This document shows, piece after piece, positions 9,680-41,995 of a stretch of 64,000 nt of DNA. Position 1 is the stretch's first letter. Each line of letters begins with the position of its first letter. The notes beneath the pieces were generated by a model. That model was not told where the DNA came from. It made no database searches and worked only from the letters and a program-made list of their open reading frames with translations. The stretch covers positions 4,224,001 through 4,288,000 of the forward strand of contig CH464491.1 in the NCBI GenBank assembly GCA_000002445.1, in the 5' to 3' direction. This DNA comes from Trypanosoma brucei. Its lineage: Eukaryota. Made by a program: the position numbers and the translations under genes.

Positions 9680-10171
9680 CTCTCCCCTCCCTTTTCTGAA
9701 TTACTAAAAATTTATCCAGCCAACCACCAGTTGTGGTTTTATCAATATTACGTACCGCTGTAGTTAGCCGCGCGTGCGCGCCTACCCGACGCTGAGGGCA
9801 GGGGAAAGAAAGAGAAGTGAAGAAGGTAGGATGAACGCAAATGCTAAGGAAGTATACGAGCAAGAAAGTGAGTTCCGATGGACGAAATGGGTAACCCCCG
9901 GTTACATGAATGGTATGGTGGCGATGCACAAAGCCAGTCGTGCACGTGAGTAACAAATAACGCACCGAATATTACAAATTCAATGTGCAGGAATCCAGTT
10001 ATACTGATTAAGACGATAATGTTTGCCTTTTGTCTTGGAGGTGGTGAACCTCTCTCACTGGCATCAAACTCTCCCTTTGCAGCAACTGCCAATCAAATGT
10101 CCGCACACGAACCCTCCATTGGATATGGTGTAACACAAGCAGCAGGAGGGACGAGCGAGTGTGAGTAAAAT

Positions 10172-10735: not shown

Positions 10736-11020
10736 GAAGAAAAAAATTGAACAAGAATCTCCTAAGAAGTACAACAACTAAAAAGAAACCAAACACTCTT
10801 ACAGTTTCCTAAATAAACAATAAAAGGGAGAACGGGTGACATAAAGAGCTCACAGAATGCACATAACAACAACCTACGAAACTCGCCGGTATTATTAAGA
10901 ATCAACAGTGGAAATGCGCCGTACCATACTCTTACAAAGTAAACCCTCCGATTCCCACCACCCCACCCTCAAGGCGGAAGTAAGCACATCCTTATCGCTG
11001 CTTCTGTGGGGTTTTGCTCA

Positions 11021-13942
11021 TTAACACAGTGCGGGGATATTCTCAAATAACCTCAACAGCCACTCAGTATCCACCGCCTTGTCCTTAAATAATGGGTCCG
11101 TTTCATACGTGGTGGGCAAGTTCTCCTTGACCATATCCTCGATCTTCTTCACATTAGGAACTCCGGTGACAGTCGACGATCCTCCAACGCCTCGAAGTGC
11201 GAGCGTAAGGTCTTTCAAGAGTACACTCCGCGTGACGAGCCCCCGCCTATTCGGGGGGCGGCTAACCTTCTTCGATCGCATGTCCAAATTTGTATGGGCT
11301 CCCTGCTTGCCATCCGCCTTTTCACCACTCAGACGAGATGTACGATCATTCATTCTACACGGCATCCATGACGTGTCATCGGGCATGGCTTCAACTACAC
11401 CCTGAAGCGGAAAGTTTACAAATTTCTTTTCGGTGCCACCACCCGGAGTGGTGGGTCCGTGAAAAGCACTACTTTCCTCTAAACCCGCCCACTCAGAGGT
11501 AAATAAGCAGTTGTCGTAGGTTTGGAGCGGCACCGTTGCTCCGTGAATTCGTGTGCTGACCAGATCCAGTGGCAGCTTGAAGTACGATGCAAGACTATTA
11601 GCCTCCTCATCCACAACGAAGAAGGTATTGCGGATGCTTTCTATCTGTGTGAGTAGTGTATCCATGGCCTGTGACGAAACCGAGACGAAATCGCCAGATG
11701 CGGGCGAAGAATAAACGGCAGCAAGTGCAAGTCTCAAATCTTCCAAAATGCCCAAAACTTGTGAGACCACAGAAGCGTCGCTATGGCAGATATCTGTGCA
11801 GCTAGAAGTGAAGTATTCATCCACACCACAATCGGCCAAATCCCAACCTTTATCTTTAGCTGAGCTCACGAACATCTTAAGGTGATCTTTCCACCTTTCA
11901 AGGATCACAAGCGCCTGTACGAGGGCGCCATTTCGGATGAGCTCCAGTCTAATCCAGTGGTGGCAAAACGTATTAAACGCCCGTTGGCAACGACGTGGGG
12001 TGAAGTCCTTGCTTTCCCTTACAGCGCGACGCACAACCCCCATAATGAGAGAAAGAAAATCCACACGATGCATTGTGAACCGCGCGACAAGTCGTATGAA
12101 CTGTGTATTAGTTACTTCTCGGTTTATACTACCCCACCGCATCCAGTTTACGGAGAGAAGTGTTACTTTTTCGAGAGCCGACACAACAGCATCAGTGCCC
12201 GCAAGCGACTCACCTTTCACATAATCCACGACCATGTTTCGTTGTTGCATCAGAAGCTCTTTCATTTTGCGGTGGGCACACTCCGGGTCACCAAGGTTGT
12301 TCAGCATATAATCACAGTACGCCACGCGCATGTAGAAGTTCCCGGGTAGTAGGTAAGAGACCCTCTCCAGAGCATCTCGCACCATCACTCGCCGTTCTCT
12401 CTCGGATAGAAGCGGTTGCTTCTCCAGGCAGAAATCCGCGTAATTACACCAGCATAACGGCTCATGAGGGAATATACTAGTCCGCATCAATAGAAAAAAG
12501 CGAACCCGTTCGTAGCCGAAAAGTTCGATGCCTGCGTAAGCAGAAGTGCTGCTCTCACGCTCGATGATGGTAGACCATACTAACCACGCCTCCACCTCGG
12601 ATCGATGCATGTGTTCCTCCTTTTCATCCCTCACGTCGAAAGCGCCGTCCACATGCAGCCGAACGGGTCGTGGGAGGTACAATGCCTTTGGCAAGAGATT
12701 ACGAGTCGAGCTGCTTTGAGACGAAAAACCACCAACCGATCCCATCAACTTGTTGAGCTCCGCCACGGCAGCTCTCGCCCTCACAAACCTCTCTTCCACT
12801 CGTCCTTCAGGTGGAGGTCTGCCCCGGTATTCCGTCTTCACGAAGTAGTCATAGTCTTCCTTAACCTCCTGAAGTTCCTGCAGGGGCGTGCGAAGCATCC
12901 TGATGTACAGCTTCCTCACCCACTCACGCCGTTGGTACATGTCAAGTATCTTGTCGCCTTTCCAGCGCAGAAATTTCTTCCATATATCTGTACTCGCTGG
13001 ACAATGCCCAACGTCCCGTTGCAACGCGGTGGTGAACACATTTTCCATCCCTGAGTCGTCCGGTTTTATGTAAACCTCCAGGAAATCAACAAACAGACGG
13101 TACAGCTCAACACTAAAGCAAAGTGGAAGGTGACGGAAGAAACAGTTCAACACTCGACAGTACGAACGATAGGTTTCCTTTGCGTCGTCTTCGTGCCGCT
13201 CATCCCACAAGTACCGGCCCTTTGCAACCTCATTGATTTCCTTACGTAAATAATACGTGACGAGGGGTCCACTCGTCGGAAAGAAAAAGGTGGCTGCATG
13301 CCAAACGTGCCGGACCGCGTTGATAGGATACTCATCCAAGGAATTTAGCAGTGATATCCAGGATGAAACACTGTAAACATTTTTATTTACCTCAATGAGG
13401 TCCGTTATCATCGATGGCGTGGGGTTTGGAAGTTGCACCTCCGCCCGCTTGTATTTTGATTCATCCAGAGTTAGCAGCGGTCCCGTCACAAGGGGAAACA
13501 ACACATTCCACGGTGAGAGGTCTCCAACACTATACTGCGAAAATTCCGGTAATGCTTCGATTCCTAAATCATCCAGCATCCGCTGGCGGGCCTCGCCAAA
13601 CGCTTGTTCCACGTCACTGTACACCGCAGAGAGCCGTTCCATCTCCAGTGTCTCTGACGTCTCATTCATCCATACCAACATTCGACCCACATCGTCCGCC
13701 ACCGTGTTCTCCACCTGAAGAGTGTGTTGCAGCTGATCCATCAGCTGCCTCTTCAACTCATCGCGCGTTTTATGGATGGCAACTAAGGCGGGGTGGCGAC
13801 AAAGAACCTGGCGGATGACAAGTAAGCACTTCTCATCTATGCGGGTGGAAGTCACCTCCTGCACGGGGGCCGCTGCCACCTTCCCTGTGGCGAACCGCAA
13901 GCGGTCCATCATGTCCCGAAGGCTACTCTGCTCATCCTCCAT
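11021..13942 (-). CDS. Conserved hypothetical protein, 973 aa, alpha-helical repeat (TPR/HAT-like) architecture
   Basis: A 2.9-kb uninterrupted ORF in line with neighbouring genes. Sequence is helix-rich with W/Y/F-punctuated repeats (e.g. CWCNYADFCLEKQ ... FYMRVAYCDYMLNNLGD). No catalytic motif recognised. Confidence 0.5.
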   Translation of the reverse strand: MEDEQSSLRDMMDRLRFATGKVAAAPVQEVTSTRIDEKCLLVIRQVLCRHPALVAIHKTRDELKRQLMDQLQHTLQVENTVADDVGRMLVWMNETSETLEMERLSAVYSDVEQAFGEARQRMLDDLGIEALPEFSQYSVGDLSPWNVLFPLVTGPLLTLDESKYKRAEVQLPNPTPSMITDLIEVNKNVYSVSSWISLLNSLDEYPINAVRHVWHAATFFFPTSGPLVTYYLRKEINEVAKGRYLWDERHEDDAKETYRSYCRVLNCFFRHLPLCFSVELYRLFVDFLEVYIKPDDSGMENVFTTALQRDVGHCPASTDIWKKFLRWKGDKILDMYQRREWVRKLYIRMLRTPLQELQEVKEDYDYFVKTEYRGRPPPEGRVEERFVRARAAVAELNKLMGSVGGFSSQSSSTRNLLPKALYLPRPVRLHVDGAFDVRDEKEEHMHRSEVEAWLVWSTIIERESSTSAYAGIELFGYERVRFFLLMRTSIFPHEPLCWCNYADFCLEKQPLLSERERRVMVRDALERVSYLLPGNFYMRVAYCDYMLNNLGDPECAHRKMKELLMQQRNMVVDYVKGESLAGTDAVVSALEKVTLLSVNWMRWGSINREVTNTQFIRLVARFTMHRVDFLSLIMGVVRRAVRESKDFTPRRCQRAFNTFCHHWIRLELIRNGALVQALVILERWKDHLKMFVSSAKDKGWDLADCGVDEYFTSSCTDICHSDASVVSQVLGILEDLRLALAAVYSSPASGDFVSVSSQAMDTLLTQIESIRNTFFVVDEEANSLASYFKLPLDLVSTRIHGATVPLQTYDNCLFTSEWAGLEESSAFHGPTTPGGGTEKKFVNFPLQGVVEAMPDDTSWMPCRMNDRTSRLSGEKADGKQGAHTNLDMRSKKVSRPPNRRGLVTRSVLLKDLTLALRGVGGSSTVTGVPNVKKIEDMVKENLPTTYETDPLFKDKAVDTEWLLRLFENIPALC

Positions 13943-14160
13943 ATTGATTCCCTGTTATGGATGCTCCGTGAGAAGGTCACGCGACAGGAAATACCAATTA
14001 TGTTATGTACCACAGCTCTAGTATAATCCAATTATCACACACGAACGCCAATGCAATGGGGAGTGGCCAACCATGAGTACGGACCACAGGGCGGTTCCCA
14101 GTTGACAAGCGGCATGGTGAAAAGAAGCGTGGAAAAGAGTTAAGGGGGGATGAATGTTGG

Positions 14161-14184
14161 TGTGTGTGTGTGTGTGTGGGGGGT
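14161..14184. repeat. (TG)9 followed by G6
   Basis: tgtgtgtgtgtgtgtgtg gggggt read directly in the spacer upstream of the 973-aa gene. Confidence 0.9.
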
Positions 14185-14529
14185 GGCACCATCCAACAAA
14201 AAAGGATGTACATGAAGGCACGAAGAACCATAAGAGTTTACACGGAACCATGTGCGCCTCCGTACCAGTAACAACAACGTACGGTAACTAACATGATAAG
14301 TCCCATCATCCCATTGAGACAAGTGACACAAAAGGGCGGGGAAAAAACAGAAACGATGGGGCAAGAGTAACATCACCCTACTCCCCCCGCGAAAGAAAAG
14401 GGTCAGATGAAGCAATAAAAACAGGGATAGAAGAGAATGTGAAGGAGCAAAGAAAAGTTATCTTTTTTTTTTGCGTTGGTTAGTTGTCTCTGTGCGTCCC
14501 ACTTCCGGCAGGTAGCTCAACCCAAACAA

Positions 14530-17500
14530 CTACGTGGGTCTGTCGATGAATGCAACACCTACAATGCTTTCGCTTTCCGCAGTTTCAACCAGGCGACGCA
14601 GGATGTGGTTTCTCACATAGCACAGTTTTGCACAGCACTCGAAACCCACATCGACACAGCCCTTCCACATATTAGCAGTTGCTTCACGCACCATTAAAAC
14701 TGCACTGGCCCCCGGTTTCGCTGCAGCGGGAGCAGCCACTTCTTGAGGTGCTGATACCACTCTGCTGTTCTCACCGTCGTTACGTACGCGCACTTGCTGT
14801 ACTCTCCCAAAAAAAGCGAACACGGCGGGTGATAGTCTTGTCCAGCATCTCAACAGCAGCCTAAAGATTAAACACAACGTGGCAATATCGAAGCGCATGA
14901 AGAAAGCACCAAAAGAGTCGACTTGCCGTACGTGCGGCCAAGCCATTACCGCCAGCGCAAATGGGAAAACTATAAATGTTGTTGTCGTCATAAAAATAGG
15001 CATCACTGCGAAAGCTAACGCTTCAAATAGTGGCATGTGGTGACAACCACAGGAAAAGTAAAGCCTCACAGGCCCCAGGTCACTTTTCAGCTTATCAGTG
15101 AGGATTATGAGTGTACCTGTTGCCACCACGCCCACAACCCATAGAAAACCACACACAAAACCCGACGCGACAACACAGGACGGGGAAAGAAAAAGCGCCA
15201 AAACGGAGGAGACGACACAAGCACCAACCATGAAGGGAAGAGCCAGCAGCAACAACGCAGCAACCAATAGTAAAGTAAGAAGGCGCCCCATGCCAGGAAA
15301 TTTTAGGCACCTAAAGAGTATCATCATCTGCTCTTCCGTCAGTGTACATGCTTGTTCTTCCCGTCGGATGAGTGGTGTAATTTCTATTGCTACTCGTTGG
15401 ATGACCTCAGCGTCGTCGGCTGTGGCGTTCCGCTGCAATTCGTCGAGAGCAACCATGATTCTGCTACAACACAAATGGGTGTACCAAGTAGGCATACCCG
15501 TAATGAGAGTTAATTCTCGCTGAGCAACATTTACCCCATCCACGTACTGTGGGCCTGCCCAAATACCGAAAGATGAACTAAATAGCCAACGACACTTCCA
15601 CTCAGTAAACTGACGAACCCCCTTAAAGGGAAGCTCCACAATGCTCAGCATCCGACTCCATGCCTCGTTGTCATTTATCATGTAAACGGTTATTATACAC
15701 CGACACCCATAAAAGAAGGTATCGACAAAGCATGAGCTGCGGACCACCAGGCAGTCAAATAGAGCAAGGCATATCCCTATCCAAATGCAAGAACATATGG
15801 AACTGCATGCAACAAAAGCCGTGCAGCGCAGAGCCTTTGAGAGAAATCCTGTGATCGAGATACCATCCCCCAACGCCAGGCCCCTGACATCGAATAGCTC
15901 CCCCATCTTGTCACCCAAACGACTATCCACGTACCACGCGATATTAAGCGAAACGTCTACCAGCATAAACACACCTTTTGCCCACCTAAATGATGATAAC
16001 AAGTTGCGGGTTACCAGCAACACCAGCGGCTTGTCGTTCCGGGAGAAGAATTGATATGCACCGAAAGCGTATGGAAGAAACCCTCCGCAAATAACCGCCA
16101 CAATGAAATTTATTTCTGCACACACTCGAAGAAGGGCCCACAAATCAAGAAGTGCACAAAGCTGACGCAACCCAGTGACAGATGCAACCTTATGTAGCAT
16201 AGTCCAACGAAACCACCTTCCTGGAAGACGCGTAGCAAACCCTACGATAAAGAAAAACTGAGAAATTACGACAGCCAAGATGACATCACTTGCCGGCCAC
16301 ATCGAAGGCATATCCACCACGGAAACAATAACCGAAAGTGCGAAGAGAAAAAATAATACTGGGTCCTCAGCTTCCTCTCCATCCAGTGTCACACCTTGAT
16401 CGACCGTTGCATTGATTCCACTTCGAAGCACCCGCGCTGCCCCGAAATCAAAACACACTTCCCTCCGCTCTGATCCCAACACAGTCTTCAACGACTTCAG
16501 TACAAGGAGGGTTGTTGGGCGCTCATCCTCATGCCTAACAGATACGGGAGTCGTTATTACCTGCCACGCCCTCTTTTTATCCTCCGCAATACCAACGTTC
16601 CGGTCGTCATCAAAGAAGTCCATAGACAAAAAAAGAACCAAAAGCGTTGTTGTTCGAATGAAGAAGGTGGGTAGCACCAGAGCAGCCATGATGCACCGAA
16701 GCAGCGACAATGCTTCAAGTACGAAAGTTCGGAGAGGCACACAGCGAACCCCCTTCATGACAAAGACAACTATCCAAATAACAAATGTCAGTCTGGCAAA
16801 GTATAAAGGGGCATGCAGTAGGTCTGAAGAACCCAGTGCTTCAATGAGTGGCTTGACCATCGCACCCCGCATACGGGCCACATTCTCCGATGGGGACAAC
16901 GTTGCCAATAAGGTATCCGCAACTTCCCAAGCACGGGAATTACCGTCAACGGCTACCCAAAGCTCCCACATCTTAATGCGCACCACCTCTGGTGCTAGTA
17001 CGCACAATACGGTACAGAAAACGTTAAGAAAGAAGAAGGGGAGAACGAGGTGTAGCAACTCCTCCTTCAATTTTCCTCGGAGCGTTTTCGACTTGCCAGC
17101 ATCACTATGTGCAGCTTCAATAGCCTGTAAAACAACCCCATCGTCCCTGGGATGCACGGCCACCTCCACAATGAGACCCGATGTTGCACTAACCATCGGC
17201 TCCCCTTCGACATCACCTCCCTCTCCAGACGCATCATATTCGCCCTCTTTCCCCTCTTCGACGGCGTCGGTGCGCCAGTTTTGCAATTGATTTACCGCAC
17301 GGCCTTCGAGGACAGGCCTCCCCTGCTCGTCCGCGTTGGGTGCTTCCCTAACAAAGGGTTCGATACCGGGCCAGTGTTCCCGTACAAGTTTAAGTAACAT
17401 TGAAGCTGCAGTAAGTTTTGTAAGGACCCACACTGTATATGACAGAGCTTCTGTAGGTCCCCATTCACTCAACGTGTGGGTGTGTGTTAACGTTACTTTG

Positions 17501-17880
17501 ACAGGTGAATATATACTTCCAGCACCCTTTAGGGACCCCTCCAACACGAAAGTTAGCCACGAAAAGATGGGCACCAACAAAGAAATGGAAAGTATTCTAG
17601 CGTTTTCTCGAATCCAAACTCTTGAGAAAATCCATATAAGCGTTACCCAGCGATAATTAGTCGCACTGATGGAGTAACTTGAGAGCTTTGCGACCCTACA
17701 CGGTGTTCCGCACACTTCACAGATCAGCGACTTGCGGTGGCGCACCCATCGTGCAAGACACTTCGAATGCACATATTTGATGGACCCATCGCAGCAACAC
17801 GGACTAACACATTTCCCGGCGCTGCTGTGGCACATCCGGCAGCTGCGTTCTTCTCGTGATGACATGTGCTTAATGAGCAA
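14530..17880 (-). CDS. Doa10/TEB4/MARCH6-type ER membrane E3 ubiquitin ligase (N-terminal RING-CH finger plus ~14 TM segments), 1116 aa
   Basis: N-terminus carries a C4HC3 RING-CH: CRMC ... CCC ... YVHSKC ... CEVC. It is followed by many hydrophobic helices across a ~1100-aa protein. This is the characteristic Doa10/MARCH6 size and topology. Confidence 0.6.
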   Translation of the reverse strand: MLIKHMSSREERSCRMCHSSAGKCVSPCCCDGSIKYVHSKCLARWVRHRKSLICEVCGTPCRVAKLSSYSISATNYRWVTLIWIFSRVWIRENARILSISLLVPIFSWLTFVLEGSLKGAGSIYSPVKVTLTHTHTLSEWGPTEALSYTVWVLTKLTAASMLLKLVREHWPGIEPFVREAPNADEQGRPVLEGRAVNQLQNWRTDAVEEGKEGEYDASGEGGDVEGEPMVSATSGLIVEVAVHPRDDGVVLQAIEAAHSDAGKSKTLRGKLKEELLHLVLPFFFLNVFCTVLCVLAPEVVRIKMWELWVAVDGNSRAWEVADTLLATLSPSENVARMRGAMVKPLIEALGSSDLLHAPLYFARLTFVIWIVVFVMKGVRCVPLRTFVLEALSLLRCIMAALVLPTFFIRTTTLLVLFLSMDFFDDDRNVGIAEDKKRAWQVITTPVSVRHEDERPTTLLVLKSLKTVLGSERREVCFDFGAARVLRSGINATVDQGVTLDGEEAEDPVLFFLFALSVIVSVVDMPSMWPASDVILAVVISQFFFIVGFATRLPGRWFRWTMLHKVASVTGLRQLCALLDLWALLRVCAEINFIVAVICGGFLPYAFGAYQFFSRNDKPLVLLVTRNLLSSFRWAKGVFMLVDVSLNIAWYVDSRLGDKMGELFDVRGLALGDGISITGFLSKALRCTAFVACSSICSCIWIGICLALFDCLVVRSSCFVDTFFYGCRCIITVYMINDNEAWSRMLSIVELPFKGVRQFTEWKCRWLFSSSFGIWAGPQYVDGVNVAQRELTLITGMPTWYTHLCCSRIMVALDELQRNATADDAEVIQRVAIEITPLIRREEQACTLTEEQMMILFRCLKFPGMGRLLTLLLVAALLLLALPFMVGACVVSSVLALFLSPSCVVASGFVCGFLWVVGVVATGTLIILTDKLKSDLGPVRLYFSCGCHHMPLFEALAFAVMPIFMTTTTFIVFPFALAVMAWPHVRQVDSFGAFFMRFDIATLCLIFRLLLRCWTRLSPAVFAFFGRVQQVRVRNDGENSRVVSAPQEVAAPAAAKPGASAVLMVREATANMWKGCVDVGFECCAKLCYVRNHILRRLVETAESESIVGVAFIDRPT

Positions 17881-18154
17881 GAATTAGGCGTGTGACCCCT
17901 GCCTTTCGTTTTGTTGTTCTTAACTGCCTTCTCAACCCTTCTGCGTGGCAAGAAAAAAAGGGAGAGAAAAGGATGGACCATAAGGAACAAACAACGGAAC
18001 GACCCCGTAATGATTGCCAAAGGGAGAGAAGGATGGATCCACACACACAAAAAAACCTTCTCGTTTAGCAAGCACCTAGTCGTCTGTGCAGTAGCGCTGG
18101 TGCTGCGTGCGGTATAGCGATGGAAAACGATGGCGCAGAAGCAGCCATTAGAAG

Positions 18155-19975
18155 CTAATTTTCCTCCGATTTGACAGCGGCTTCTTCCAGTCCTTGGAAG
18201 CGCGGGAAGGTCTGAATGCCCAGCTCATCAGCAGCTAATGAAAGACGCTTATCCATCGTGCAAAGCAGCAACTGATCACATGCGATCCCGCGCACGTCGC
18301 GGTGATGGCGGCGCACATGGTACTTAATGAAAGCGAAGAGCATCGTTCCGTCGGATATCTGCTCTATACCCTGAAGTAACGCAGCGCTACGCTGTCGAAA
18401 GGCGTACTGAAGCGCAACACAAGTATTGAGAATGCGTAAGTCGGGATCATTCTCACTTGCCATCTCATTGAGACGTGAATATGCCATACATGAGATGACG
18501 GAAAGCGAAATGCAGGGGAATTCTGATGACAGAGCCAAGACTTCCACCGAAGGGTCCCTGAGAATAGCAGTCACACGACTCCACAGCAGCGTGCGCATTG
18601 CCCGCTTCAGCGGCGCAGCGGAGTTCCATACTAGTTGGTGGGCCTCACGTACAGTTGTAAAAGGAATGATAACGCGACGCAGAGACTTGCCTTCGAGGTG
18701 AGGATATTGCTTTCTTATGTGGACGTAAAAGTGGCTGAGCGCCAGGTTCTTGGACGCGCAGTGAATGAGAAAATTGGTGTCGAACACCAGCAGCACATCA
18801 CCTCGCTTAAATGCCTCATCCGCAAGCTCAGACACGGGACGCCCGTGGAGGTCATTCAATGACATTACCTTCGCGCAGATGTTGCTAAGTGAGTTCAGGA
18901 GTGGACGGTACTTCCGGTGTACCTCACTAGTTGATAGCAACCGAAATGTCTTGTCGCTTCTGGGAGGTGGACCAAAAGAATCATCTCGGGGGTGCATTCG
19001 ATACGTGATGTCATTAATAACATCGTGAAGAGTAAAGTTGTGGTATGGGTCGGAAGAGTAAAGACAGTCCACTAGACTTGTGTAAGTTGCCGTGATCCTT
19101 TGGTCGGGCTCTCTAGAAGAGGAAAATAACCCCAAATCCGCAGCTGCGTCCAACGCCGCTATCCACTGACCGGATTTTTGCAAGGGCTTCACTAGGGAGC
19201 CGAAAAGGGAAACATTTACCTGATGCCCCTCCGCCAAAGAGGAGGCTACAAGTCGCAGCATTTTGTCATATTTCCCCGCTACACCCAGAGCTCGAACAAT
19301 CGGTTTAATGTTTGAGGGAGCCATCGACATCAACGGCTGTTGGTGCAACACTTTAATGGCTTCACCCCAGCGGCCGTTAGACGACAATATGTTTATGAGA
19401 CTGCGCGTGTCGGTTATGCTCTGGCGCATCCCCGGATGTTTCTTGTAAAGATGTATGGCATGCTCCCACATGCCTGTGAAGGAAGCATACACCAAAGCTG
19501 ACCTGGTTCCCTGATAAGTTGTGGCGTCTACATCCTCCTCCATTATCCGCTTGATGGCGTAGAAATTACTATAGCGTTTAAATCTTTCCAGTGCTGTACC
19601 GACAAGGCGCGTGTGCGGACGTACCTGCCCACATATTCCCTTTATTATTCCGTAGTAAAACAATGATGCACTCCAAGAATTCTCCATTTTCAAAAGCCCT
19701 TGGTTTAGCTCCTCAGTTGTAGGCTGGTACACCCCCGAAAGCAGTTCTGTAACACTTTTATACACAGAGAGCACATCCACCCAAGTCCCGCAACCTGAAG
19801 AAGCCACGAGAAGCGGAAGGGCTCTCGTCGGCGGCGGAACCCGCTGCATAAACAAAAGGCCACACCCTGTCCCACCTTGCACTATTTCTACTTCCTCACT
19901 TTTCCCTCTATGTGAGGGGGATTTAATACGTTGAGGGTGGGGCGAGGTGGCTGCAGTAAACGATGGCAGTCGCAT
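18155..19975 (-). CDS. PPR-like helical repeat protein with C-terminal PIN/NYN-like nuclease domain (PRORP-like architecture), 606 aa
   Basis: The middle region has ~35-aa degenerate helical-hairpin repeats (e.g. LINILSSNGRWGEAIKVLHQQPLM, PIVRALGVAGKYDKMLRLV). The C-terminal region starts VLLVFDTNFLIHCASK, a PIN/NYN-like acidic entry strand, followed by further conserved acidic positions and Cys/His residues. I infer the architecture from motifs; it is not verified. Confidence 0.4.
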   Translation of the reverse strand: MRLPSFTAATSPHPQRIKSPSHRGKSEEVEIVQGGTGCGLLFMQRVPPPTRALPLLVASSGCGTWVDVLSVYKSVTELLSGVYQPTTEELNQGLLKMENSWSASLFYYGIIKGICGQVRPHTRLVGTALERFKRYSNFYAIKRIMEEDVDATTYQGTRSALVYASFTGMWEHAIHLYKKHPGMRQSITDTRSLINILSSNGRWGEAIKVLHQQPLMSMAPSNIKPIVRALGVAGKYDKMLRLVASSLAEGHQVNVSLFGSLVKPLQKSGQWIAALDAAADLGLFSSSREPDQRITATYTSLVDCLYSSDPYHNFTLHDVINDITYRMHPRDDSFGPPPRSDKTFRLLSTSEVHRKYRPLLNSLSNICAKVMSLNDLHGRPVSELADEAFKRGDVLLVFDTNFLIHCASKNLALSHFYVHIRKQYPHLEGKSLRRVIIPFTTVREAHQLVWNSAAPLKRAMRTLLWSRVTAILRDPSVEVLALSSEFPCISLSVISCMAYSRLNEMASENDPDLRILNTCVALQYAFRQRSAALLQGIEQISDGTMLFAFIKYHVRRHHRDVRGIACDQLLLCTMDKRLSLAADELGIQTFPRFQGLEEAAVKSEEN

Positions 19976-20681
19976 TCATAATTGCAGGTTCGCCGCGGGG
20001 GCAGGAAAGAGGAAGAGCAATAATGATAAGAACAGCGTAGAATACAATGTAGGCAAAGAAAGGTATCATATAAACCAATCAAGTCGAACAAAGCGACGGA
20101 TTATTAGGAACATGCGGTTCTTAACAACTAACATACACCAATAGCTCCCCTATATCTGTATTACCTCTTTAATGAAGTTACTTGACATCGTACACTGCGA
20201 CGGGGTTTCCCCCAATTTACAAGTTACAGTGAGGAATTAAGAGCAAAAAAAATAATTAAAAAAATCGGGTTAGTTTCTCCCCTTCTTTCCATAAATCAGT
20301 TCAAGATATAAAACAAATATACCCACTCCACATTACAGCATATAAAGGGAATAAAGGCAAAACAAAGCAAAGGATTTAATTACACACCCTTTCCCCCCTC
20401 TCGTAAGGGTTGCTGTACATTTGGATAGGCGCAAAAGTCCCTTGCACAAAGGCAAAAAGAGCATCACCAAAACACAGAAAGAAGGAAACAAATAGGAAAA
20501 CACAAAAGTAAGAAAAGTAGCTATAAAGAAGGAAGTAACAGCGGGAGTGATGTGGATAATGAAGTTTAAGTCTGTACAGTCAAAGACAACGATGCTTGAA
20601 AAGGTGAGGAGGTGGGAAATAGTCATAGAAATTTTAAAATATTTTTTAAAAATAGTAATTTTTACTTCCCCTTGTAGGGAG

Positions 20682-23600
20682 TCACGCAAGTTCCATTTCC
20701 ATTGCATGGTTAATTGCTATCATGAGCTTTTCTTTAAATAGCTTGTACGTATCATACGGAGGAATTGTCACAAGTGATGTGCACGATTGAGCCCGTGGTA
20801 GATGATCAATGCTCTCCGTTCCTTGTAGAACTCTGATTTTAGCAGCGAGGGGAGGCCGCTTTTGACCGCAGCCAAAACAAAGGAAAGAGGAGCGCTGACA
20901 AGGACTAAAATCGTCCATGACGCGCCAAAAAATTCTTTTGCTGCGCGGCGGAAGTTGTACTTCGAGCCACTGCCTCATCACTTCAGGCGTTATGTCGGGC
21001 TCACCGCACACCATTCGCTCCAGCTCCCTCCACGAAACACAGCGAACGACTCGCCTCGGTAAAACTGCCCAAAGGCCTGTGCGAATAGCGCTTAACTGAG
21101 CGTCTAGTGAGTGAAGCAGACAACTCTCCGCGACCCGACGGTAGTGAGCCACTTGGGATTCTCCGGTCATTGTTGCGTTGCTAAAAGCAGCGGAAAGGCC
21201 CTTGGAAAAGTTTGGTATGATTTCCTCGGCCGCTGTGCTGAGGAGAAAATCTCCATCCCCCACGATCTTCTCCGCCGCATTATCGACGTAAAGATAATAA
21301 TCCCTCACCATAAGTACATCTCCGACCATATACTTCCACAGAAAGGGTGAAAAATCCAAGGAAACTGGTGATTTGGCTACAATGCAGTGAGCCATTATTT
21401 TTCCGAGTAAATTGAAAAGTGCAAGGCTGTGTGCTGAGTTGGCGGAGCTGTTGGGTACTAACCCGACCCTTTGAGAATGTTCCGGGTAGTGGAAAAGTGG
21501 ACTCCGGTTGAAGGAGGTGTTCGGATAACACATGTCTGGATGGGTCATGATCTCCTCACTAAGGAAAGTCCACAACTGTCTATACGGGCCTCCAAGATCT
21601 TGAGGTGAGTGTCCACTGTGAGTGATGTGCAGCTGCACTTTGAAGAGTGGGTGCTGCCTAAACATCCTGGGCTTGAATGAGCCAATCTGTTTATATATTT
21701 GAGACAGTATGGAGCAGTGGAGAACCGCCTCGGCCGTTCGTGGGAGATCGCAGTACAGCTCTGTTACGTGCACTGTTATGCCCTGGGGCATGTCATTTAT
21801 CTCCACCTGTGGAATGGCCACTAAATACCGCCTCGTGAACGGGCGCCGAACAATACATTTCAGCATAAGAAAGGCCTCAGGCAAACACCCAACGACAACG
21901 TCATCGTCCAAGTTAATGAAACGACGAGCGGTTGCCATGCAGCTCTCAGCAACACGAATAACCTTTGTGTGAAGCATCCTTTCCGTGTCAGTAAGCGCCA
22001 TGATCATCGGGTAGCGCAGGAGAGGCCCCCTTTCATGCACACCAGGCTCGCAGTGGAACGGAGAGACACCGCTCGCACTAATCTCAGTTACCCTTGATGG
22101 CTTGGCCTCCTCCAAATCTGAGAGATATGATGCCAGTTGTTCATAGAACGAAATGGGCATGTACGGCAGGACGCTTTTTCCTTGGGAAGCGGCATCACCC
22201 CAACCTCGTACCCTGACGCAGGCAAAACGCCCAGCCAAGTCCGAGTAGTCACCGGGTAGGTAATGAAACTCATTGACATTCAAAGAGATCCGCATGCCGT
22301 CGTTCGTGCCAGCAGACACGAAGGCATATAATGGCCCATCTCCGCGTCCAACAGGGATAGGTACAAACGGTCCACGAATTCCGTCAACGGACCATGCCAC
22401 CACCCCCTTGTCATTGTCCAGAAGGCAACCAATCGTACACTTTGGCGACACTTCCTTTTCTGGTTTGTACTCTTCCTTTCTGTCATGGCACAAGAGTTCA
22501 TTCCCCGTAAATCCAAAACTGTATGCGTCACTTCCAATGGGTTGGTCAGGAATATGACTGTGTTGTTTCGCCCCCCAACCGACGACAAATGGCACCGAGA
22601 GTTTCTCTGGCAATGTAACTTCATAATAGTACTTTCCCCGAGAGGCCACAGCGCATCGGCTCACGACCTTTCCCACAACGAGAGAGCCACCTTCAAACTC
22701 CCCGAATAAACAGACCGCCTCAACAACCGCCGCATGAAGCATGCCATCGTGCTCATCGCTAATGTCTACAGCCTTTGGCAGCTGGCACCCCTCACGAAAC
22801 GCCTGGGCCAAATCCAGTAGGCACCGCAGTGGTGCCAAAGGAATATGGCGGACAGTGCTAGCGAGGAGTGACTCCGGGAGAAACATCACAAGCTCCACTC
22901 CCGCGGCAACATCCTCCGGAATCTCCGAGTAATCCGAGCCGTCCAAGGCATATTGGTCAACCCACCTCACCAGCATGGATAACAACTGAAGAAGAACGCC
23001 ATCGTGTCCCTCGCCGTAGCACCTAACAAGGCTGATAATGCATCCCAGAAGGTGTTGCCGGTACCTTCGGCAGCAGCGATGTGTTGCCGACACGATGGCG
23101 TGAAACGAATCCCAAAGAAGCGATGGGAAAGGTACCACGATTTCAGGGCGCAGTAAAACATATTTAGTGACGAGATGCGATAAAGTGACACAATCCCATG
23201 GCTTTGTTGAGGGTTCTGAAATGGTCCGCAACGCTCCACACAAAAACCTTTGCAACAGCGCTCCATCTGCACAAGTAGCAAACAGTTTCTCCGCCATAGG
23301 ACTGGAGTGGTAAAGCACCACTGCTTGAACGTCGTCCCCACCAGCGCCGAGAAAGGAAAGATAGATGTGACGGGAAAGCAGCACCACAAGCCGGTGTAGC
23401 GCCGACCCAACACCGCGTTTATACGACTTTTCCACCCCCGCTAGCGTATTTGTCGGGGGTTCAGTGGGGTCCCTCAAACCAGGAAGAGGTTCAACGTGAG
23501 CCAAGTCAGACAATGGAGGTATTCGCACCGTGTCGCAGCGGAAGGAACGCAACACAAATGCACTAGCACTTCCTTCTCTTGGCTTCCACTGCCCCGAAAC

Positions 23601-26600
23601 CCTCAGACCACTGGCGTCTACGGTACCCTCCGCAATTACAATTCCAACGGAACGCTTTCCACTTGCAAGGACGGACCCGACTTCTTCCGCAACTTCCTCA
23701 AATGAGGAGTGACACCCTCTCATTAGAAGGCGAGTGACACAATAAACAGTTTGAAGAGGAGCAGTAAACAGTAGAAGGAATAAAGATCGGCTGCTGCGCC
23801 TAAACTTTCCCAACGCGGTGTATTTCATAGTACCGGTAGGAAGGTTAACGTAAGCTTCGCCCATGCAGTTTGCCTTCAACTGCAAAGAAATTGTGCCGCG
23901 GACTCCACCAGCAGCGCTAATTTCTCCTTCCCACACACCTTCTATTGTCATTCTCTTCATGGGATTGTTGAGACACGTCACCCGCAGCCCATGCTCAAAA
24001 AGGCTGCAAGGCAATCCACTGCTTGATGTCCACCACACATTCCCGGCACATTGTTTCACTGGAATGCAATCCAGCGTACTGAGTGAAACTCTTGAATGCG
24101 GTGCGTGAATCTTCACGCCCTCAAATACATCTGCAGTATTCTGTTTAACGACGCGAAAGATTTCCCCTCTGTGCACTCCACCAATTGCACAAACCAACAT
24201 GTTGTACTTCACTGCGCAAAACCATGAATTACACAGAGATGAAGGTACAAAACCATCGAGGCGCTTATCGCCCAACTCAGCCAGGTATGTGCAACTTTCT
24301 GTGGCCATCACAGCATCCTGTAGGTCAGAAAAGAATTTCGCCTGAACATCGTTGCTTATTTCCACTGCTGCCAAGTGTCTCAGAATATCCACAAGTGCCG
24401 TACGGTGTGGGAGAACAACGGAGGAAAGGTCCTTGTTGTCGCACAACCCCTTTAGAATCAGCAAAAATCGGGATATCGCAAAGCCCTCTGCCACTGTTGG
24501 GCCACACTTTTCCAGGTTGCAGTTAAGCTCCCGTTCCTCAGATACCACACCATACGGATCAACCAACAGCTGTGAAAAAGGGACATGCCGAACTGCACCC
24601 CCTGCCGGAACATACAAAACCGCTTCATCACGATCAACAGCCACAACCCTGCCCTGAAGAAGCTCTCCGTTATCAAAGGTATATACAAGCACACCCACCA
24701 TTGGGGAGTCTGTACATGGTACAAGCGGGACGCGGCAGTGCTCTGGCCTAAGCAACTTTACCCCACCGCTACACGACACACTCACAACGCCATCAGTAAC
24801 GTCATCCACAACTCCTTGAATTGTTCCACCACATTCTGGCAAGACGGAGGCTGTAATGTCCTTCTGTCCGAAGAGTACGAACCCTACAAGGTTAGGCTTT
24901 GATGAGCTCACATCAAGTGAGGCAATATCGCAAGACCCAAGCGTCGACCAATCACGTGCTATCACCACTTCACCACACTGGAAATCTGCTTCAACAGTGA
25001 TTGTCGAACTGTTTTGGAAGCCCCCTACAGAACGAGCAGAAAATCTTACTGCCTGATTCAGCGTCGAGTCGTTGCAGAGAGCCACAATTCCTGGTGTCCC
25101 CGAAACCAACTTCCCTCGAAGCGACACTGGGGAGACACCGAGTACTTCCGAGGCCTCACCAATACCAATGAACGTAGGTACAACGGGGTCCAGCGGCTCT
25201 CCATCGGTTGTATTAATCGTGACGGTGAAAACCGCCCGATGCTTATACGCAATCCCCCATACTGTCAGAGCGTTGATTCCAGACGAAACCGCAACGCAAT
25301 GCATCCGTCTTTCATCGACACAGCATCCCTCACTTTTAAGGTAAAAGGCGCATACAGCAGGAATGGCTACACTCATTCCCACATCTAGTTTGCTTGGAGG
25401 GGTATTGTTGCTTACCAGCAAGTTGGATCCCATCTCGGTAAAAGGATGGTGCGAGTGGGCGCAGAGCATAAAGCAGGACCTGCAAAGTTGATAGTCGACG
25501 CATTCATTGCACTTGTACCATTTCAACTGATTCATGTCAGTTGTCAGCTTCATCACAGGGCAGGAGTCACATCTTTTCTTGAATTTTGCCAGAGACAGCG
25601 AAAAATGTGGCAGCTGCGTGGTTGTGCGCGCTACCTCCTCATTGTTCCGTGAAGGTAAAATAACGGCCACAGCGTCTGTATTGTAGAGATGAACGAAAGG
25701 GAATAACTCCTCGCCCGCAGGGACCTCGTCGTAGATCAATCCCAAAGGAGTTTCCTCCTGATTCACACCTTTGCGGTACGCATGAATGGTCCCTTCGTCC
25801 CGGTTAACATCAAGACGAACGATATCACCGCTGACAATGATGCAGTTAGGCTCCGCTATAGTACGAAATTTTGCATTGGTGCAGAGGTGAGGTAAACGCC
25901 ACGGTGCAACATCCATATCGTGCAGCGCCCACGCCTCCGGGCTTCCCAATGTGAGGTCACGCCGTCTCCAACCAAAGGAAGCGTTGCAAACACCAACGTA
26001 ATATCCTCCACCCAATATTTGTCCTACCTTTCCTCGGAGAAGTTGAAAGCGCAAGCTGAACTGACCTTTAAGTGGGACTGACGGCTCTGCGATTGCAATG
26101 AAGGGGGCTGACGAACCCTTCGTGTCGTTCAAAACTGTCGCCAAACTACCGCAGAAGTACGGCGGGAAACGGAAGCAAGGATTAGATAGGGCCGACGAAA
26201 AAGTATGACCGCAAGGAATACGTGACGGCTCTAGTAAAGTAGTATCTCGTACAAGTCGTTGAATACGATAGAAATGCATCGCGCGGACACTGAAAAGCGA
26301 CCGATTCCATAGCTCTTTCTCCTCCTCAAGGATGCGCTCCCGCTGCCGCACTTCGGTTAAAGAAAGCGCCTGTGTCGTAACCAATGGTGTAACAAGGCGC
26401 CTGAGAGCACCAACCAGGGCGTTAACACATTGACGCAATCCCCCTAGTGAGTGACCAGGCTGCTCCCAACGCAGCGCGGTGTGCATGAAACGGCTATTGT
26501 GTGGACGAAGATTGCCGAGGTGCTCGCAGAACGTGACACCTTCACAAGAAACGCTGGCAAAATGGCTCATAAGCCGGCGGCACGACACAACCGCCACCTC

Positions 26601-29600
26601 ACCATCGTGCCCACAAATCTCGAAGAGACGCGGATCTGCCACACCCCCAAACAATGCCAACGTGACAAAAGGAGTGACGCAATCATTGAGCTCACCGCAT
26701 ACGGCATCAACAACGCATTGCTCAAAGGGCTTCAGCGTTATCATACTCCGCAGCACATCGGTGGCTGCAGCCCTGAGAAGAGTGACGGGGGATATAGGTG
26801 ACATCATCTCGCCTGACCCAATAAACGCGGAGGCATCGTCGTTGTAAAGCTGCACGAAGGGAACCAAATCGATATCCGATGGAACATTGACGAAGAGTGT
26901 CTGGACGAAAGCATTCTCGCGGTAAAATTCCAGTTCCCGTTTCTCCCGCCGGACACGCACACGAATCGACTCCACACTCCCAAAGGACCGCTGAAAAGTA
27001 TTGGGCGCCACGTGCGGGTTCGTTGCGTGCTGCAGCTGCGGTGACATATCGTGGAGGGCCCATACAAGAGGCGGGTTTAAAGATTTCCATCCTTGTGCGG
27101 TGCTCGTGGAAATCGGAAACGGGAGATGCGCAGCAGCAACACCAACATAGTACCCCCCTTTCAGTGAACTACCAAGTGGATATCCTCTCCGGCAAATACG
27201 TACGGTAAACGAGGTGTCGCCGACCCTCGGCAGAACATTTCCCAGCACAACGCTCCGCTGCGCGCCCGAGCGCATCTGTGCCAGCTGTGCATGCGCAATC
27301 GTGACACATCGAGTATCGCACTTCAACCAGCGCAAAGAGAGGGGAATATGTTTGCGCTTACGGTCTCGAGCATTTGCATGCACGAAGAGCATATTTACAA
27401 GTTGATGCACGACACCAGTATCGTGGACATGGCTGATATGGGGAACAAGCTCCGCCAACAGTCCAACGGTTGCGAGCTGAACTGAATGCAAGGATGGTGA
27501 CATCAGAACGCGTACTGTGCTTAACAGCATTTCCTCCAGTGCTTCCGGAAGGGGACGGACCCTCACGATCCGCACAACGAAACGTAAAGTAGCAATATGC
27601 CGAAGAACTGACCACTCCGCAAATGGAGGAAGGCCGTCAGCAGCAAAGTAAGACCCAGAACTGTCTCGTATCTTGGCACCATCCTGTGTCACGAAAGACA
27701 TTACATTACCCAGGTGCCGACAAACAGCGTCACAGCATTGAACCCAAAACGGCGTCATGCATGGATTAAAGTTGCATTGCAACGTAGAAGAGTGAGTGGT
27801 GATGTAGTGTAGAGCAACCTCCGAAGCGAAGGCGATGCTGTAGTGCGTTGGGACGTCAGCGAAACCGGGAGAGGCCCAAAGTCGGTTTAGGTCATAACGG
27901 AATGGTCGAAGCCCAAAGTTAACGGTAAACCCCACACGCTTCTTGTCGCCCATACGAATGGTTGGATAGAGGGAATCCTCTCCACCCTTGATACCACCGG
28001 CAAAAGACATAAAGGTACCGTTGAGAGTAAAGAAAACACGACGGGTGAATCGGACAATACCGCAGCCGACCGTGTCGCCATAACCGAAGGGTGGAAGCTT
28101 AATAATGTGTGTCAAGCCAGAATCCTTGTAGAAATACACGGATTCATCAGGTCGGTCCACACAACTGTGACAGTTGCTGATGCAGACCATGAAACTGCAG
28201 CACGAAGTTGAAAGTTCCACCTCGTAGTACAGCACCGGTGGGACATCGGTTAAATGGGGAGTGAGAGGTGGGATGCTCCACGCCTCATCCGCTCGCAGTA
28301 CGAGTGGGGGCGAGCCGGCAGCTTTCTCGACCAGCACGCCCCTATCACACAAAGAAACACTAAGGTTAGGTATGACAACAGAGAATCCGTTTGAAGCAAG
28401 ACGCCTGTCGTACACTTGATCAGCCGGGGCTAACACCCCGCCTAATACCGGGTGGCAGCTCCTCAAACTGGCAGTAGAGTTACGCTTCCATCGCGTCTGC
28501 GCTCGCCATGTCGCTGGTAGCCTACAAACTGGCATGTGTATCGACTCCGCGAGGCGAATGAGAATGTTAAGCACCTCAGGCGCTGATGCTCTACTAAACA
28601 ATTCGCAGTCCGTGGGGTCCCACGGGTGACACATGATGCTCAGTAGCTGAATGGTCAAGGACCCTTGAAGGGCCAGCGTCGTTGTTGCGACTTCTGAAGA
28701 CATGTACACAGGGAGACTGTTGATGAGAATGCATCGGCACTTCCTCAACACGTCATAGAATGCCACACGCACACGAGACTCCAAATCCACTCCAGAGCCA
28801 GTGAAATTTTCTAGAATATGCTTCCCTTTGGCTCCTTCATATACGGAAAAGACAACGTCAAGGATCTTTCGGACTGTGCGCGGCTCATATTCTACCGCCG
28901 GCTGTGATAGTAGCGTAGAAAGTATATGAAACCCCCGAGCAACGTTTAATGCGGCAACCGTTTGCTCCACCAAAATGTCTTCAAGTTCGTCATGCGTACC
29001 GCCCTGCTCAACGAAATCGCGTAACTGGCTCAGAAGCTTCCGGGCGCCCTTCATCTCCTCTGGTTCTTTTTGATCTGGTGTCATGCTGTCACTATGAGCA
29101 ACCTCGTCGCACGGCGGTACCGCAGCCTCGCCTTCTCGTTCCTGTGGCGGATACGGCACAAACCTTGCTTGAAGTGGCAACACGTCGCTTTGGCACGCAA
29201 TACAGCGAACTGCCCAGTCGGCAAAATCCACAATCGACCGACGTGTTGCGTCCTTCTCAACTCCCTGAAGCAGATTCCCCCATTCCAAGGAGAACCCGCG
29301 CGACTCTAACTCTGCCTCTGCTTCATGTGGTTCCATGCCGCAATGTATAAGAAGCGCCAGAAGTGCCGAAACAACAGGCCGCATCGACAGGTTGACCTTA
29401 CCTTGCACACTTTGCCAGACCTTATCTGATAGTGTTTTTCCAGCACCCCTAGCGCCAAGGATATCCGACGCGATACCCAAACCCCCTTTTCGGCCAGGAA
29501 CATACAACTGATGCTTTGATAGAGCTTCGCTGTTGAGCCCGTGATGGAACAGCGGCGCGAGAGGAAATGCACGTGGCCTAGGAAAAACCACCAAGTGCTT

Positions 29601-37852: not shown

Positions 37853-37873
37853 TGTTTGCACGCAGAGTAGCAC

Positions 37874-41934: not shown

Positions 41935-41971
<37 letters not shown>
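41935..41971. repeat. (CA)8(TA)10 compound microsatellite
   Basis: cacacacacacacaca tatatatatatatatatatat read directly, just downstream of the myosin stop. Confidence 0.9.
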
Positions 41972-41995
41972 TTCCCTTCCCCTCTTTTTTGGTTC

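What the first reader, a model, noticed from the sequence alone, without database searches (positions are those of the whole stretch)
18155..19975. PPR-like repeats fused to a PIN/NYN-like nuclease domain: candidate protein-only RNase P (PRORP) or related organellar RNA nuclease
The 606-aa protein combines degenerate ~35-aa helical-hairpin repeats with a C-terminal domain opening with the VLLVFDTNFLIH strand typical of PIN/NYN metallonucleases. PPR plus NYN is the PRORP architecture. Kinetoplastids are known to use protein-only RNase P. The motifs could equally denote a different PPR-nuclease involved in mitochondrial RNA processing. I cannot place it confidently by eye.
Basis: inference. Interest (0 to 1): 0.5.

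Follow-up and report, generated by a model that had tools for sequence, protein, structure and literature searches.

The report
Known trypanosome PPR–PIN protein, not PRORP
This gene is an already studied Trypanosoma brucei mitochondrial protein (TbPPR9, Tb927.11.16250) that joins RNA-binding PPR repeats to a classical PIN nuclease domain and keeps the COX1 and COX2 mRNAs stable; it is not a protein-only RNase P.

Summary
A 606-aa ORF lies at 18155..19975 (-). It has PPR repeats (E 1e-18 to 1e-23 against designer PPR structures) and a C-terminal PIN domain (Pfam PIN_4, above the curated cut-off, in 22 of 23 family members).

The PRORP reading fails four tests:
- No family member hits the PRORP or NYN Pfam models.
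- None has the CxxC zinc module.
- The two T. brucei PRORPs map to other loci.

The protein is 100% identical to T. brucei TREU927 XP_829682.1. Gene order (CARP1 = Tb927.11.16210 ... TbXPBz = Tb927.11.16270) and published domain coordinates identify it as Tb927.11.16250. That is almost certainly TbPPR9, which is reported to stabilise the mitochondrial COX1 and COX2 mRNAs and to interact with TbMba1. The PIN domain was already noted in a 2022 preprint.

New here:
- The D-E-D-D catalytic tetrad (D399, E444, D512, D575) is invariant down to about 22% identity, so the nuclease is probably active.
- The PIN is the VapC/SMG6 type.
- The real start is probably Met43, giving 564 aa.

Interest is low to moderate.

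The parts
18155..19975 (-). Longest ORF, 606 aa including the stop codon. This is the form deposited as XP_829682.1 / EAN80570.1 / UniProt Q381G1.
18155..19849 (-). Probable real coding sequence, 564 aa, starting at Met43 of the long ORF.
   Evidence: Met43 is invariant and all Trypanosoma orthologs start there. With this start, Pfam places PPR at 150-169 and PIN_4 at 354-547. That matches the published '150-210' and '355-550' for Tb927.11.16250.
20003..20017 (-). Polypyrimidine tract (CTCTTCCTCTTTCCT) upstream of the ORF, a likely trans-splicing signal.
   Evidence: The function is inferred from established knowledge of trypanosome trans-splicing.
19951..19952 (-). First AG downstream of the polypyrimidine tract, a candidate spliced-leader acceptor. 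It lies 23 nt downstream of ATG1, so ATG1 would be absent from the mature mRNA.
   Evidence: inference
19778..19849 (-). N-terminal 24 residues counted from Met43 (MQRVPPPTRALPLLVASSGCGTWV), with 2 basic and 0 acidic residues. Presumed mitochondrial presequence.
   Evidence: for composition. The protein is treated as mitochondrial in the TbMba1 pulldown paper. The targeting role is inferred.
18995..19831 (-). Alpha-helical repeat solenoid, about 17 helices or roughly 8 hairpins. This is the PPR-type RNA-binding domain.
19058..19489 (-). The part of the solenoid recognisable as PPR by sequence, about four 35-aa motifs, residues 163-306 of the long ORF.
18209..18790 (-). PIN domain (Pfam PIN_4), residues 396-589. 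It has a helical insertion of roughly 60-70 aa relative to minimal VapC domains.
18779..18781 (-). Asp399, at the end of strand 1 in the DTN motif. First catalytic acidic residue. It aligns with the Asp of the N-terminal DTN motif (Asp7) of Shigella VapC.
   Evidence: Invariant in 23 of 23. hhalign. Codon checked.
18644..18646 (-). Glu444, in the helix after strand 2 (PFTTVRE). Second catalytic acidic residue.
   Evidence: Invariant in 23 of 23. Position relative to the strands comes from the model.
18440..18442 (-). Asp512, in the NPD motif at the N-terminus of a long helix. Third catalytic acidic residue.
   Evidence: Invariant in 23 of 23
18251..18253 (-). Asp575, in the T-x-D-K/R motif just after strand 4. 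Fourth catalytic acidic residue.
   Evidence: Invariant in 23 of 23
18308..18319 (-). His553 to Arg556 (HVRR) in the helical insertion of the PIN domain. His553 and Arg556 are invariant. Candidate RNA-contacting residues.
   Evidence: The role is inferred.

Best explanation
The gene is Tb927.11.16250 of Trypanosoma brucei, almost certainly the protein published as TbPPR9. It is a nuclear-encoded mitochondrial protein of 564 aa, counted from Met43. Its N-terminal half is a PPR-type helical solenoid that binds RNA. Its C-terminal third is a classical PIN domain of the VapC/SMG6 (PIN_4) type. Published work reports that its depletion selectively destabilises the mitochondrially encoded COX1 and COX2 mRNAs, and that it interacts transiently with the ribosome receptor TbMba1 at the inner membrane. 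My proposed mechanism is as follows. The PPR tract selects these transcripts, and the protein holds them at the membrane-bound translation and insertion machinery. The PIN domain keeps an invariant D-E-D-D metal-binding tetrad, so it is most likely an active Mg2+/Mn2+ endoribonuclease that makes a specific cut in or near these transcripts, for example trimming a UTR or removing an interfering RNA. It is probably not a dead scaffold. What is shown here: identity, domain architecture, fold class and residue conservation. What is taken from the literature: the mRNA stabilisation and the Mba1 interaction. What is inferred: nuclease activity and its substrate. My sub-probabilities are about 0.95 for identity with Tb927.11.16250/TbPPR9, about 0.95 for not being a PRORP, and about 0.55 for a catalytically active PIN.
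For: Identity:
- The protein is 100% identical to T. brucei TREU927 XP_829682.1 on a 5.26-Mb contig.
- The 705-aa cNMP-binding ORF at 7562..9679 matches CARP1 = Tb927.11.16210, and the XPB helicase at 34247..36643 matches TbXPBz = Tb927.11.16270. Five ORFs lie between them and this is the fourth.
- Domain coordinates counted from Met43 (PPR 150-169, PIN_4 354-547) match those published for Tb927.11.16250.

Function from the literature:
- Tb927.11.16250 stabilises the CoxI and CoxII mRNAs and is enriched about ten-fold with TbMba1.
- TbPPR9 has the same reported role.

Architecture:
- PPR hits at E 1e-18 to 1e-23.
- PIN_4 above the curated cut-off in 22 of 23 members.
- AF2 model with pLDDT 87.8 and pTM 0.78.

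Active site:
- D399, E444, D512 and D575 are invariant in 23 sequences down to 22-25% identity, and E485 is acidic in all.
- The same D-E-D-D pattern is the SMG6 active site in the PIN_4 cluster.
- D399 aligns with the Asp of the N-terminal DTN motif (Asp7) of Shigella VapC.
Against: - No tool here gives a direct table linking gene ID to sequence. The primary TbPPR9 paper (PMC3255935) could not be read, so the TbPPR9 link rests on secondary citations and on position.
- A factor that stabilises mRNA is not an obvious endonuclease.
- The current model of kinetoplast mRNA biogenesis uses monocistronic transcription without endonucleolytic processing (review text), which leaves no assigned role for a cut.
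- Only the first catalytic residue could be aligned to a solved PIN by sequence. PIN-only profiles find nothing in the PDB. The other three assignments rest on their positions in a predicted model.
- The residues at PPR position 5 are R, K and G, which are non-canonical (alignment), so the RNA target cannot be predicted.
Confidence: 0.55

Rival explanations
1. It is a protein-only RNase P (a PRORP, or a third PRORP paralogue) that removes 5' leaders from pre-tRNAs.
For: [quoted passage not shown] Foldseek lists human PRORP (7onu_E, E 7.5e-4) and AtPRORP2 (5diz_B, E 5.6e-3) as weak hits.
Against: - 0 of 23 family members hit Pfam PRORP PF16953 or any NYN model, even at E <= 1, while 22 of 23 hit PIN_4.
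- Sequence and profile searches of the PDB return no PRORP chain at E <= 10.
- No member has a CxxC motif and the family has no invariant Cys, so the zinc module is absent.
- The Foldseek PRORP hits have TM 0.23-0.29 and rank below pure PPR proteins.
- T. brucei RNase P activity is attributed to PRORP1 (Tb09.211.0870) and PRORP2 (Tb11.02.0510), which are different loci.
- The reported knockdown phenotype is loss of specific mRNAs, not a tRNA defect.
Confidence: 0.03
2. The PIN domain does not cut RNA. The protein acts purely as a PPR-type RNA-binding stabiliser or translational activator for COX1 and COX2, comparable to yeast Pet309 for COX1. The PIN fold serves as an RNA-binding or protein-docking surface, as the PIN domains of SMG5 and Nmd4 do.
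Against: All four canonical acidic residues, plus the Thr of the DTN motif, are invariant across the whole family down to about 22% identity. Inactive PIN_4 members such as SMG5 have lost some of these residues; the cluster is listed as 3-4 conserved active-site residues with SMG5 as the degenerate example. Conservation this strict is hard to explain without metal binding.
Confidence: 0.35
3. It is a structural PPR protein of the mitoribosome (a KRIPP) or a ribosome assembly factor, and the mRNA loss is secondary to a translation defect.
Against: Those matches are generic PPR-fold similarities at 7-13% identity. No chain of the solved T. brucei or Leishmania mitoribosomes or their assembly intermediates matches this protein by sequence; the best is mL52 at E 0.33. 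A stable component would have matched at near identity. The reported effect is selective for two mRNAs, and the Mba1 interaction is described as transient.
Confidence: 0.05

Closest known systems
TbPPR9 / Tb927.11.16250 (Pusnik & Schneider 2012; Wenger et al. 2022 preprint)
   Same: It is the same gene by every test available: 100% identity to the TREU927 protein, the right position between CARP1 and TbXPBz, and matching PPR and PIN domain coordinates.
   Different: Nothing differs except the annotated start. The GenBank protein has 606 aa, while the published domain coordinates fit a 564-aa protein starting at Met43.
PRORP (protein-only RNase P; AtPRORP1-3, human PRORP/MRPP3, T. brucei PRORP1/2)
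   Same: Both have an N-terminal PPR RNA-binding domain followed by a metallonuclease of the PIN-like superfamily, and both work in organellar RNA metabolism.
   Different: The nuclease belongs to a different structural group: VapC-like PIN_4 here, against the PRORP group (PF16953). There is no zinc-binding module. The active site is a D-E-D-D tetrad rather than five Asp. The locus is different. The reported role concerns mRNAs, not tRNAs. This looks like an independent fusion of PPR repeats to a nuclease.
Eukaryotic PIN_4 endonucleases (SMG6, Swt1) and the PIN modules of SMG5 and Nmd4
   Different: Those proteins are cytosolic or nuclear mRNA-surveillance factors with other partner domains and no PPR repeats. 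Sequence similarity is too low for any pairwise or profile hit in the PDB.
Bacterial VapC toxins
   Different: VapCs are stand-alone proteins of about 130 aa, neutralised by antitoxins. Here the domain is about 195 aa with a helical insertion, and it is fused to a PPR solenoid in a mitochondrial protein.
Gene-specific mitochondrial PPR factors such as yeast Pet309 (COX1), and plant PPR-SMR proteins
   Same: Pet309 is a PPR protein dedicated to the COX1 mRNA. PPR-SMR proteins are another case of PPR repeats fused to a nuclease-type domain (from my own knowledge).
   Different: Pet309 has no nuclease domain. The SMR domain is unrelated to PIN. No homology beyond the PPR repeats was seen: hits below the family level cover only the PPR region.

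Membership tests
PRORP (protein-only RNase P) | C-terminal PRORP-type (NYN-like) metallonuclease domain, Pfam PF16953 | tested here: not met
PRORP (protein-only RNase P) | Zinc-binding module (CxxC plus His/Cys) bridging the PPR and nuclease domains | tested here: not met
   No CxxC motif in any of 23 members, and no invariant Cys in the family. The feature is described.
PRORP (protein-only RNase P) | Active site of five aspartates (AtPRORP1 D399, D474, D475, D493, D497) | tested here: not met
   The invariant acidic residues are D399, E444, D512 and D575 (plus E485), spaced as in canonical PIN domains. There is no adjacent Asp-Asp pair. No direct alignment to a PRORP sequence was made.
PRORP (protein-only RNase P) | N-terminal PPR domain | tested here: met
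PRORP (protein-only RNase P) | Endonucleolytic removal of pre-tRNA 5' leaders | not testable with these tools
   This needs an enzyme assay or genetic complementation. T. brucei RNase P activity is attributed to two other genes.
PIN_4 / VapC-like PIN domain | Match to Pfam PF13638 above the gathering score | tested here: met
   28.7 bits against a 21.9-bit cut-off, covering 1-128 of 132 profile positions. 22 of 23 family members match, best E 6.4e-9.
PIN_4 / VapC-like PIN domain | Canonical PIN fold (parallel sheet with alternating helices) | tested here: met
PIN_4 / VapC-like PIN domain | Four conserved acidic active-site residues (D-E-D-D, as in SMG6) | tested here: met
   D399, E444, D512 and D575 are invariant in 23 of 23. 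The pattern is as. D399 aligns with the Asp of the N-terminal DTN motif (Asp7) of VapC. The other three are placed by their position next to strands 2 to 4 of the model.
PIN_4 / VapC-like PIN domain | Metal-dependent ribonuclease activity | not testable with these tools
   This needs biochemistry.
PPR proteins | Tandem helix-hairpin motifs of about 35 aa that match PPR models | tested here: met
PPR proteins | Canonical base-specifying residues at motif positions 5 and 35 | tested here: inconclusive
   In the alignment to dPPR10, the position-5 residues of three motifs read R, K and G rather than N, T or S. The plant PPR code therefore cannot be applied.
TbPPR9 / Tb927.11.16250 | Same sequence and locus in T. 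brucei TREU927 chromosome 11 | tested here: met
   100% identity to XP_829682.1. It is the fourth of five ORFs between CARP1 (16210) and TbXPBz (16270). Domain coordinates match.
TbPPR9 / Tb927.11.16250 | The name TbPPR9 refers to gene Tb927.11.16250 | tested here: inconclusive
   The same laboratory reports the same function (COX1/COX2 mRNA stabilisation). The primary paper and the preprint's reference list were not readable.

The most novel reading that the evidence does not exclude
TbPPR9 is a PPR-guided, sequence-specific PIN endoribonuclease. Its cut in or next to the COX1 and COX2 transcripts, or in an interfering antisense or read-through RNA, is what makes these mRNAs stable and translatable. 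That would be an endonucleolytic step in kinetoplast mRNA biogenesis, which is currently described as working without endonucleolytic processing. It would also be a second, independent invention of a 'PPR plus PIN-like nuclease' enzyme alongside PRORP.
Probability: 0.3. Interest if true: 0.6.

Novelty: already known. Interest (0 to 1): 0.25.

Why it matters
The gene, its PPR repeats, its PIN domain and its knockdown phenotype are already published, so the finding itself is not new.

The useful outcome is a correction. This is not a third trypanosome RNase P. It is a separate kinetoplastid-restricted fusion of PPR repeats to a classical VapC/SMG6-type PIN domain.

The one point that deserves an experiment is that the catalytic tetrad is invariant across the whole family, although the protein is known only as an mRNA stabiliser. 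If the PIN domain cuts RNA, it would give trypanosome mitochondria a gene-specific endonuclease that current models do not include. It would also offer a natural PPR-targeted nuclease.

Tried and rejected
- **PRORP membership.** Rejected on Pfam, PDB sequence and profile searches, the zinc-motif scan, fold neighbours and locus identity.
- **Stable mitoribosomal or assembly-factor PPR.** Rejected because no chain of the solved trypanosomatid mitoribosome structures matches the sequence.
- **PDB searches with the PIN region.** Neither the PIN region alone nor a 15-sequence PIN-only profile gave any hit, so a residue-level alignment to a solved PIN was not obtained this way.
- **hhalign of the PIN profile against Shigella VapC.** The VapC sequence was recalled from memory and then verified as identical to 3tnd_A. 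Only the first strand and the DTN motif aligned.
- **Profile search with the search for homologous proteins.** It returned only the same ten Trypanosoma proteins. The exhaustive representative search was needed to reach the distant relatives.
- **First structure prediction.** With ten sequences and the long ORF it was poor (pLDDT 61) and was not used. The second prediction, with 23 sequences and the Met43 start, was good.
- **Single-motif PPR scan with a designer consensus.** It found only two weak motifs and was uninformative.
- **Reading a PPR code.** Not possible, because the position-5 residues are non-canonical.
- **The afdb50 fold library.** It was not available, so the architecture could not be looked for by structure outside kinetoplastids.
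- **The primary TbPPR9 papers.** They are not held. Direct literature searches for Q381G1, XP_829682 and neighbouring gene IDs found nothing.
- **Rfam and tRNA scans of the window.** Both found nothing.

Full report
**Observation**

- PPR repeats:
  - phmmer against PDB chains returns designer and natural PPR proteins (dPPR10 E 1.7e-18, maize PPR10 E 1e-6) over residues about 163-306.
  - A family profile raises this to 7.7e-23.
  - NCBIfam PPR TIGR00756 is above its cut-off.
  - The single-motif Pfam PPR model is just below its cut-off.
- PIN domain: the C-terminal domain that opens with VLLVFDTNFLIH matches Pfam PIN_4 (PF13638) over residues 396-589, covering 128 of 132 profile positions, at 28.7 bits against a 21.9-bit cut-off.

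**Which gene it is**

The protein is 100% identical to T. brucei brucei TREU927 XP_829682.1 / EAN80570.1 / UniProt Q381G1. It is annotated "hypothetical protein, conserved" or "PIN domain-containing protein", on a 5.26-Mb contig.

The neighbours anchor the locus.
- The 705-aa ORF at 7562..9679 has cNMP-binding domains. It matches CARP1 = Tb927.11.16210, "a 705-amino-acid protein" with cyclic AMP binding-like domains.
- The 798-aa ORF at 34247..36643 is an XPB/ERCC3 helicase. It matches TbXPBz = Tb927.11.16270.
- Exactly five ORFs lie between them, and the finding is the fourth, which gives Tb927.11.16250.

[quoted passage not shown] The preprint reports that it selectively stabilises the CoxI and CoxII mRNAs and is enriched about ten-fold in a TbMba1 pulldown. 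Counted from Met43 of this ORF, Pfam places PPR at 150-169 and PIN_4 at 354-547, which matches those numbers.

Reviews give the same function to TbPPR9 (Pusnik & Schneider 2012). I therefore take TbPPR9 and Tb927.11.16250 to be the same gene. I could not read the primary paper or the preprint's reference list.

**Start codon**
- Ten Trypanosoma orthologs align from an invariant Met that corresponds to Met43. The T. brucei N-terminal extension and the one in the longer T. vivax entry are unrelated to each other.
- The only polypyrimidine tract within about 500 nt upstream of ATG1 (20003..20017) is followed by its first AG at 19951..19952. That AG is 23 nt downstream of ATG1, and there is no ATG between it and Met43.
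- By the usual rule for trypanosome trans-splicing (established knowledge), ATG1 would be absent from the mature mRNA. The real product is then 564 aa (18155..19849).
- Its first 24 residues have two Arg and no acidic residue, which fits a mitochondrial presequence. This is an inference.

**Is it a PRORP?**

I tested the defining features.
1. Nuclease type:
   - The query gave no PRORP (PF16953) or NYN hit at E <= 10.
   - No family member gave one at E <= 1, while 22 of 23 hit PIN_4.
   - Sequence and profile searches of the PDB returned PPR proteins only and no PRORP chain.
2. Zinc module: no CxxC motif exists in any of the 23 members, and no Cys is invariant.
3. Fold:
   - With a 23-sequence alignment and the Met43 start, AlphaFold2 gave a confident model (pLDDT 87.8, pTM 0.78).
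   - The only PRORP entry in the top 60 was the isolated PPR domain 6lvr_A.
   - Foldseek listed full-length PRORPs only weakly (E 7.5e-4 to 9.5e-3, TM 0.23-0.29), below pure PPR proteins.
4. Locus: T. brucei PRORP1 and PRORP2 are Tb09.211.0870 and Tb11.02.0510. RNase P activity in this organism is attributed entirely to them.

In the published classification of the PIN-like superfamily, PIN_4 (SMG5, SMG6, Swt1, PhoH2) sits in the VapC-like group. PRORP forms a separate group that is fused to zinc-binding motifs and has a five-Asp site.

The protein is therefore not a PRORP. It is an independent fusion of PPR repeats to a classical PIN domain.

**Family and conservation**

An exhaustive HMM search of 1.84 billion representatives found only about 18 clusters of full-length relatives (17 with E < 1e-30). 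Everything below them matched only the PPR region.

The named members are Trypanosoma species and Strigomonas. The most distant relatives (21-26% identity) come from unnamed assemblies and a metagenome. Their contigs show dense same-strand gene arrays typical of kinetoplastids, and the homolog is followed by a Leo1 gene each time. I infer that they are free-living kinetoplastids, but this is not shown.

Across 23 sequences the invariant positions in the PIN domain are D399, T400, P438, E444, P511, D512, H553, R556, T573 and D575. E485 is acidic in all. In the model the four acidic residues sit as follows:
- D399 at the end of strand 1.
- E444 in the helix after strand 2.
- D512 at the N-terminus of a long helix after strand 3.
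- D575 directly after strand 4.

These are the canonical PIN positions, and they follow the D-E-D-D pattern of SMG6. By profile comparison, D399 aligns with the Asp of the N-terminal DTN motif (Asp7) of Shigella VapC (the VapC sequence was verified). The other three could not be aligned by sequence, because the domain is too divergent.

**Mechanism**

Shown here: the protein has a PPR solenoid of about eight hairpins, a classical PIN domain, and an intact, strongly conserved metal-binding tetrad.

From the literature: depletion destabilises the COX1 and COX2 mRNAs, and the protein interacts transiently with TbMba1 at the inner membrane.

Inferred: the PPR tract selects these transcripts, and the PIN domain is an active Mg2+/Mn2+ endoribonuclease acting on or near them. 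I put this at about 0.55.

The main rival, at about 0.35, is that the PIN is a non-catalytic binding module, as in SMG5 and Nmd4. In favour of the rival, a stabiliser is not an obvious nuclease, and current models of kinetoplast mRNA biogenesis need no endonuclease. Against it, inactive PIN_4 members lose catalytic residues, whereas here all are invariant.

The RNA target could not be predicted, because the position-5 residues of the motifs are non-canonical.

**Verdict**

The gene is already known, and its PIN domain has already been noted in print. This analysis adds the fold-class assignment, the conserved catalytic tetrad, the probable Met43 start and the narrow kinetoplastid range. Interest is low to moderate. 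The open and testable question is whether the PIN domain cuts RNA.

Noticed in passing
window 19850..19975 (-): The first 42 codons of the deposited 606-aa protein (XP_829682.1) are probably not translated. Orthologs start at Met43, and the likely spliced-leader acceptor AG (19951..19952) lies downstream of ATG1.
   Followed up: partly
L001 5212..6996; L002 6006..7742; GCA_041442895.1 contig: In three distant homolog contigs, the PPR-PIN gene is followed directly on the same strand by a Leo1 (PF04004) gene. In T. brucei the next gene downstream is instead a RING-variant membrane protein (14530..17880), so synteny differs between the groups.
   Followed up: no
window 20682..33143 (-): The upstream neighbour is a giant 4153-aa protein with a SPRY domain and a C-terminal HECT ubiquitin-ligase domain.
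   Followed up: partly
window 14530..17880 (-): A 1116-aa ORF with an N-terminal RING-variant (RINGv, MARCH-type) domain and a long hydrophobic, apparently multi-pass membrane body.
   Followed up: no
window 41996..45175 (-): A myosin motor protein with a C-terminal UBA domain, which is an unusual tail. From memory this is probably TbMyo21 (Tb927.11.16310), which would fit the gene numbering.
   Followed up: no
window 54603..60548: A stretch of about 6 kb with no ORF of 200 aa or more and the lowest G+C in the window (0.32-0.37 at 56-60 kb, against about 0.50 elsewhere). No tRNA or Rfam family was found.
   Followed up: partly
window 7562..63789: Every gene-like ORF in this span is on the minus strand, and cumulative GC skew falls steadily. 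This fits a single polycistronic transcription unit.
   Followed up: no
window 47151..49985 (-), 39792..40868 (-), 10172..10777 (-): Three ORFs of 944, 358 and 201 aa have no Pfam match at E <= 1e-3 or 1e-4. They were not studied further.
   Followed up: no
window 18308..18319 (-), residues 551-556 of the long ORF: A K-Y-H-V-R-R motif in the helical insertion of the PIN domain. His553 and Arg556 are invariant across the whole family. It is not part of the canonical PIN active site and may be a family-specific RNA-contact element.
   Followed up: no
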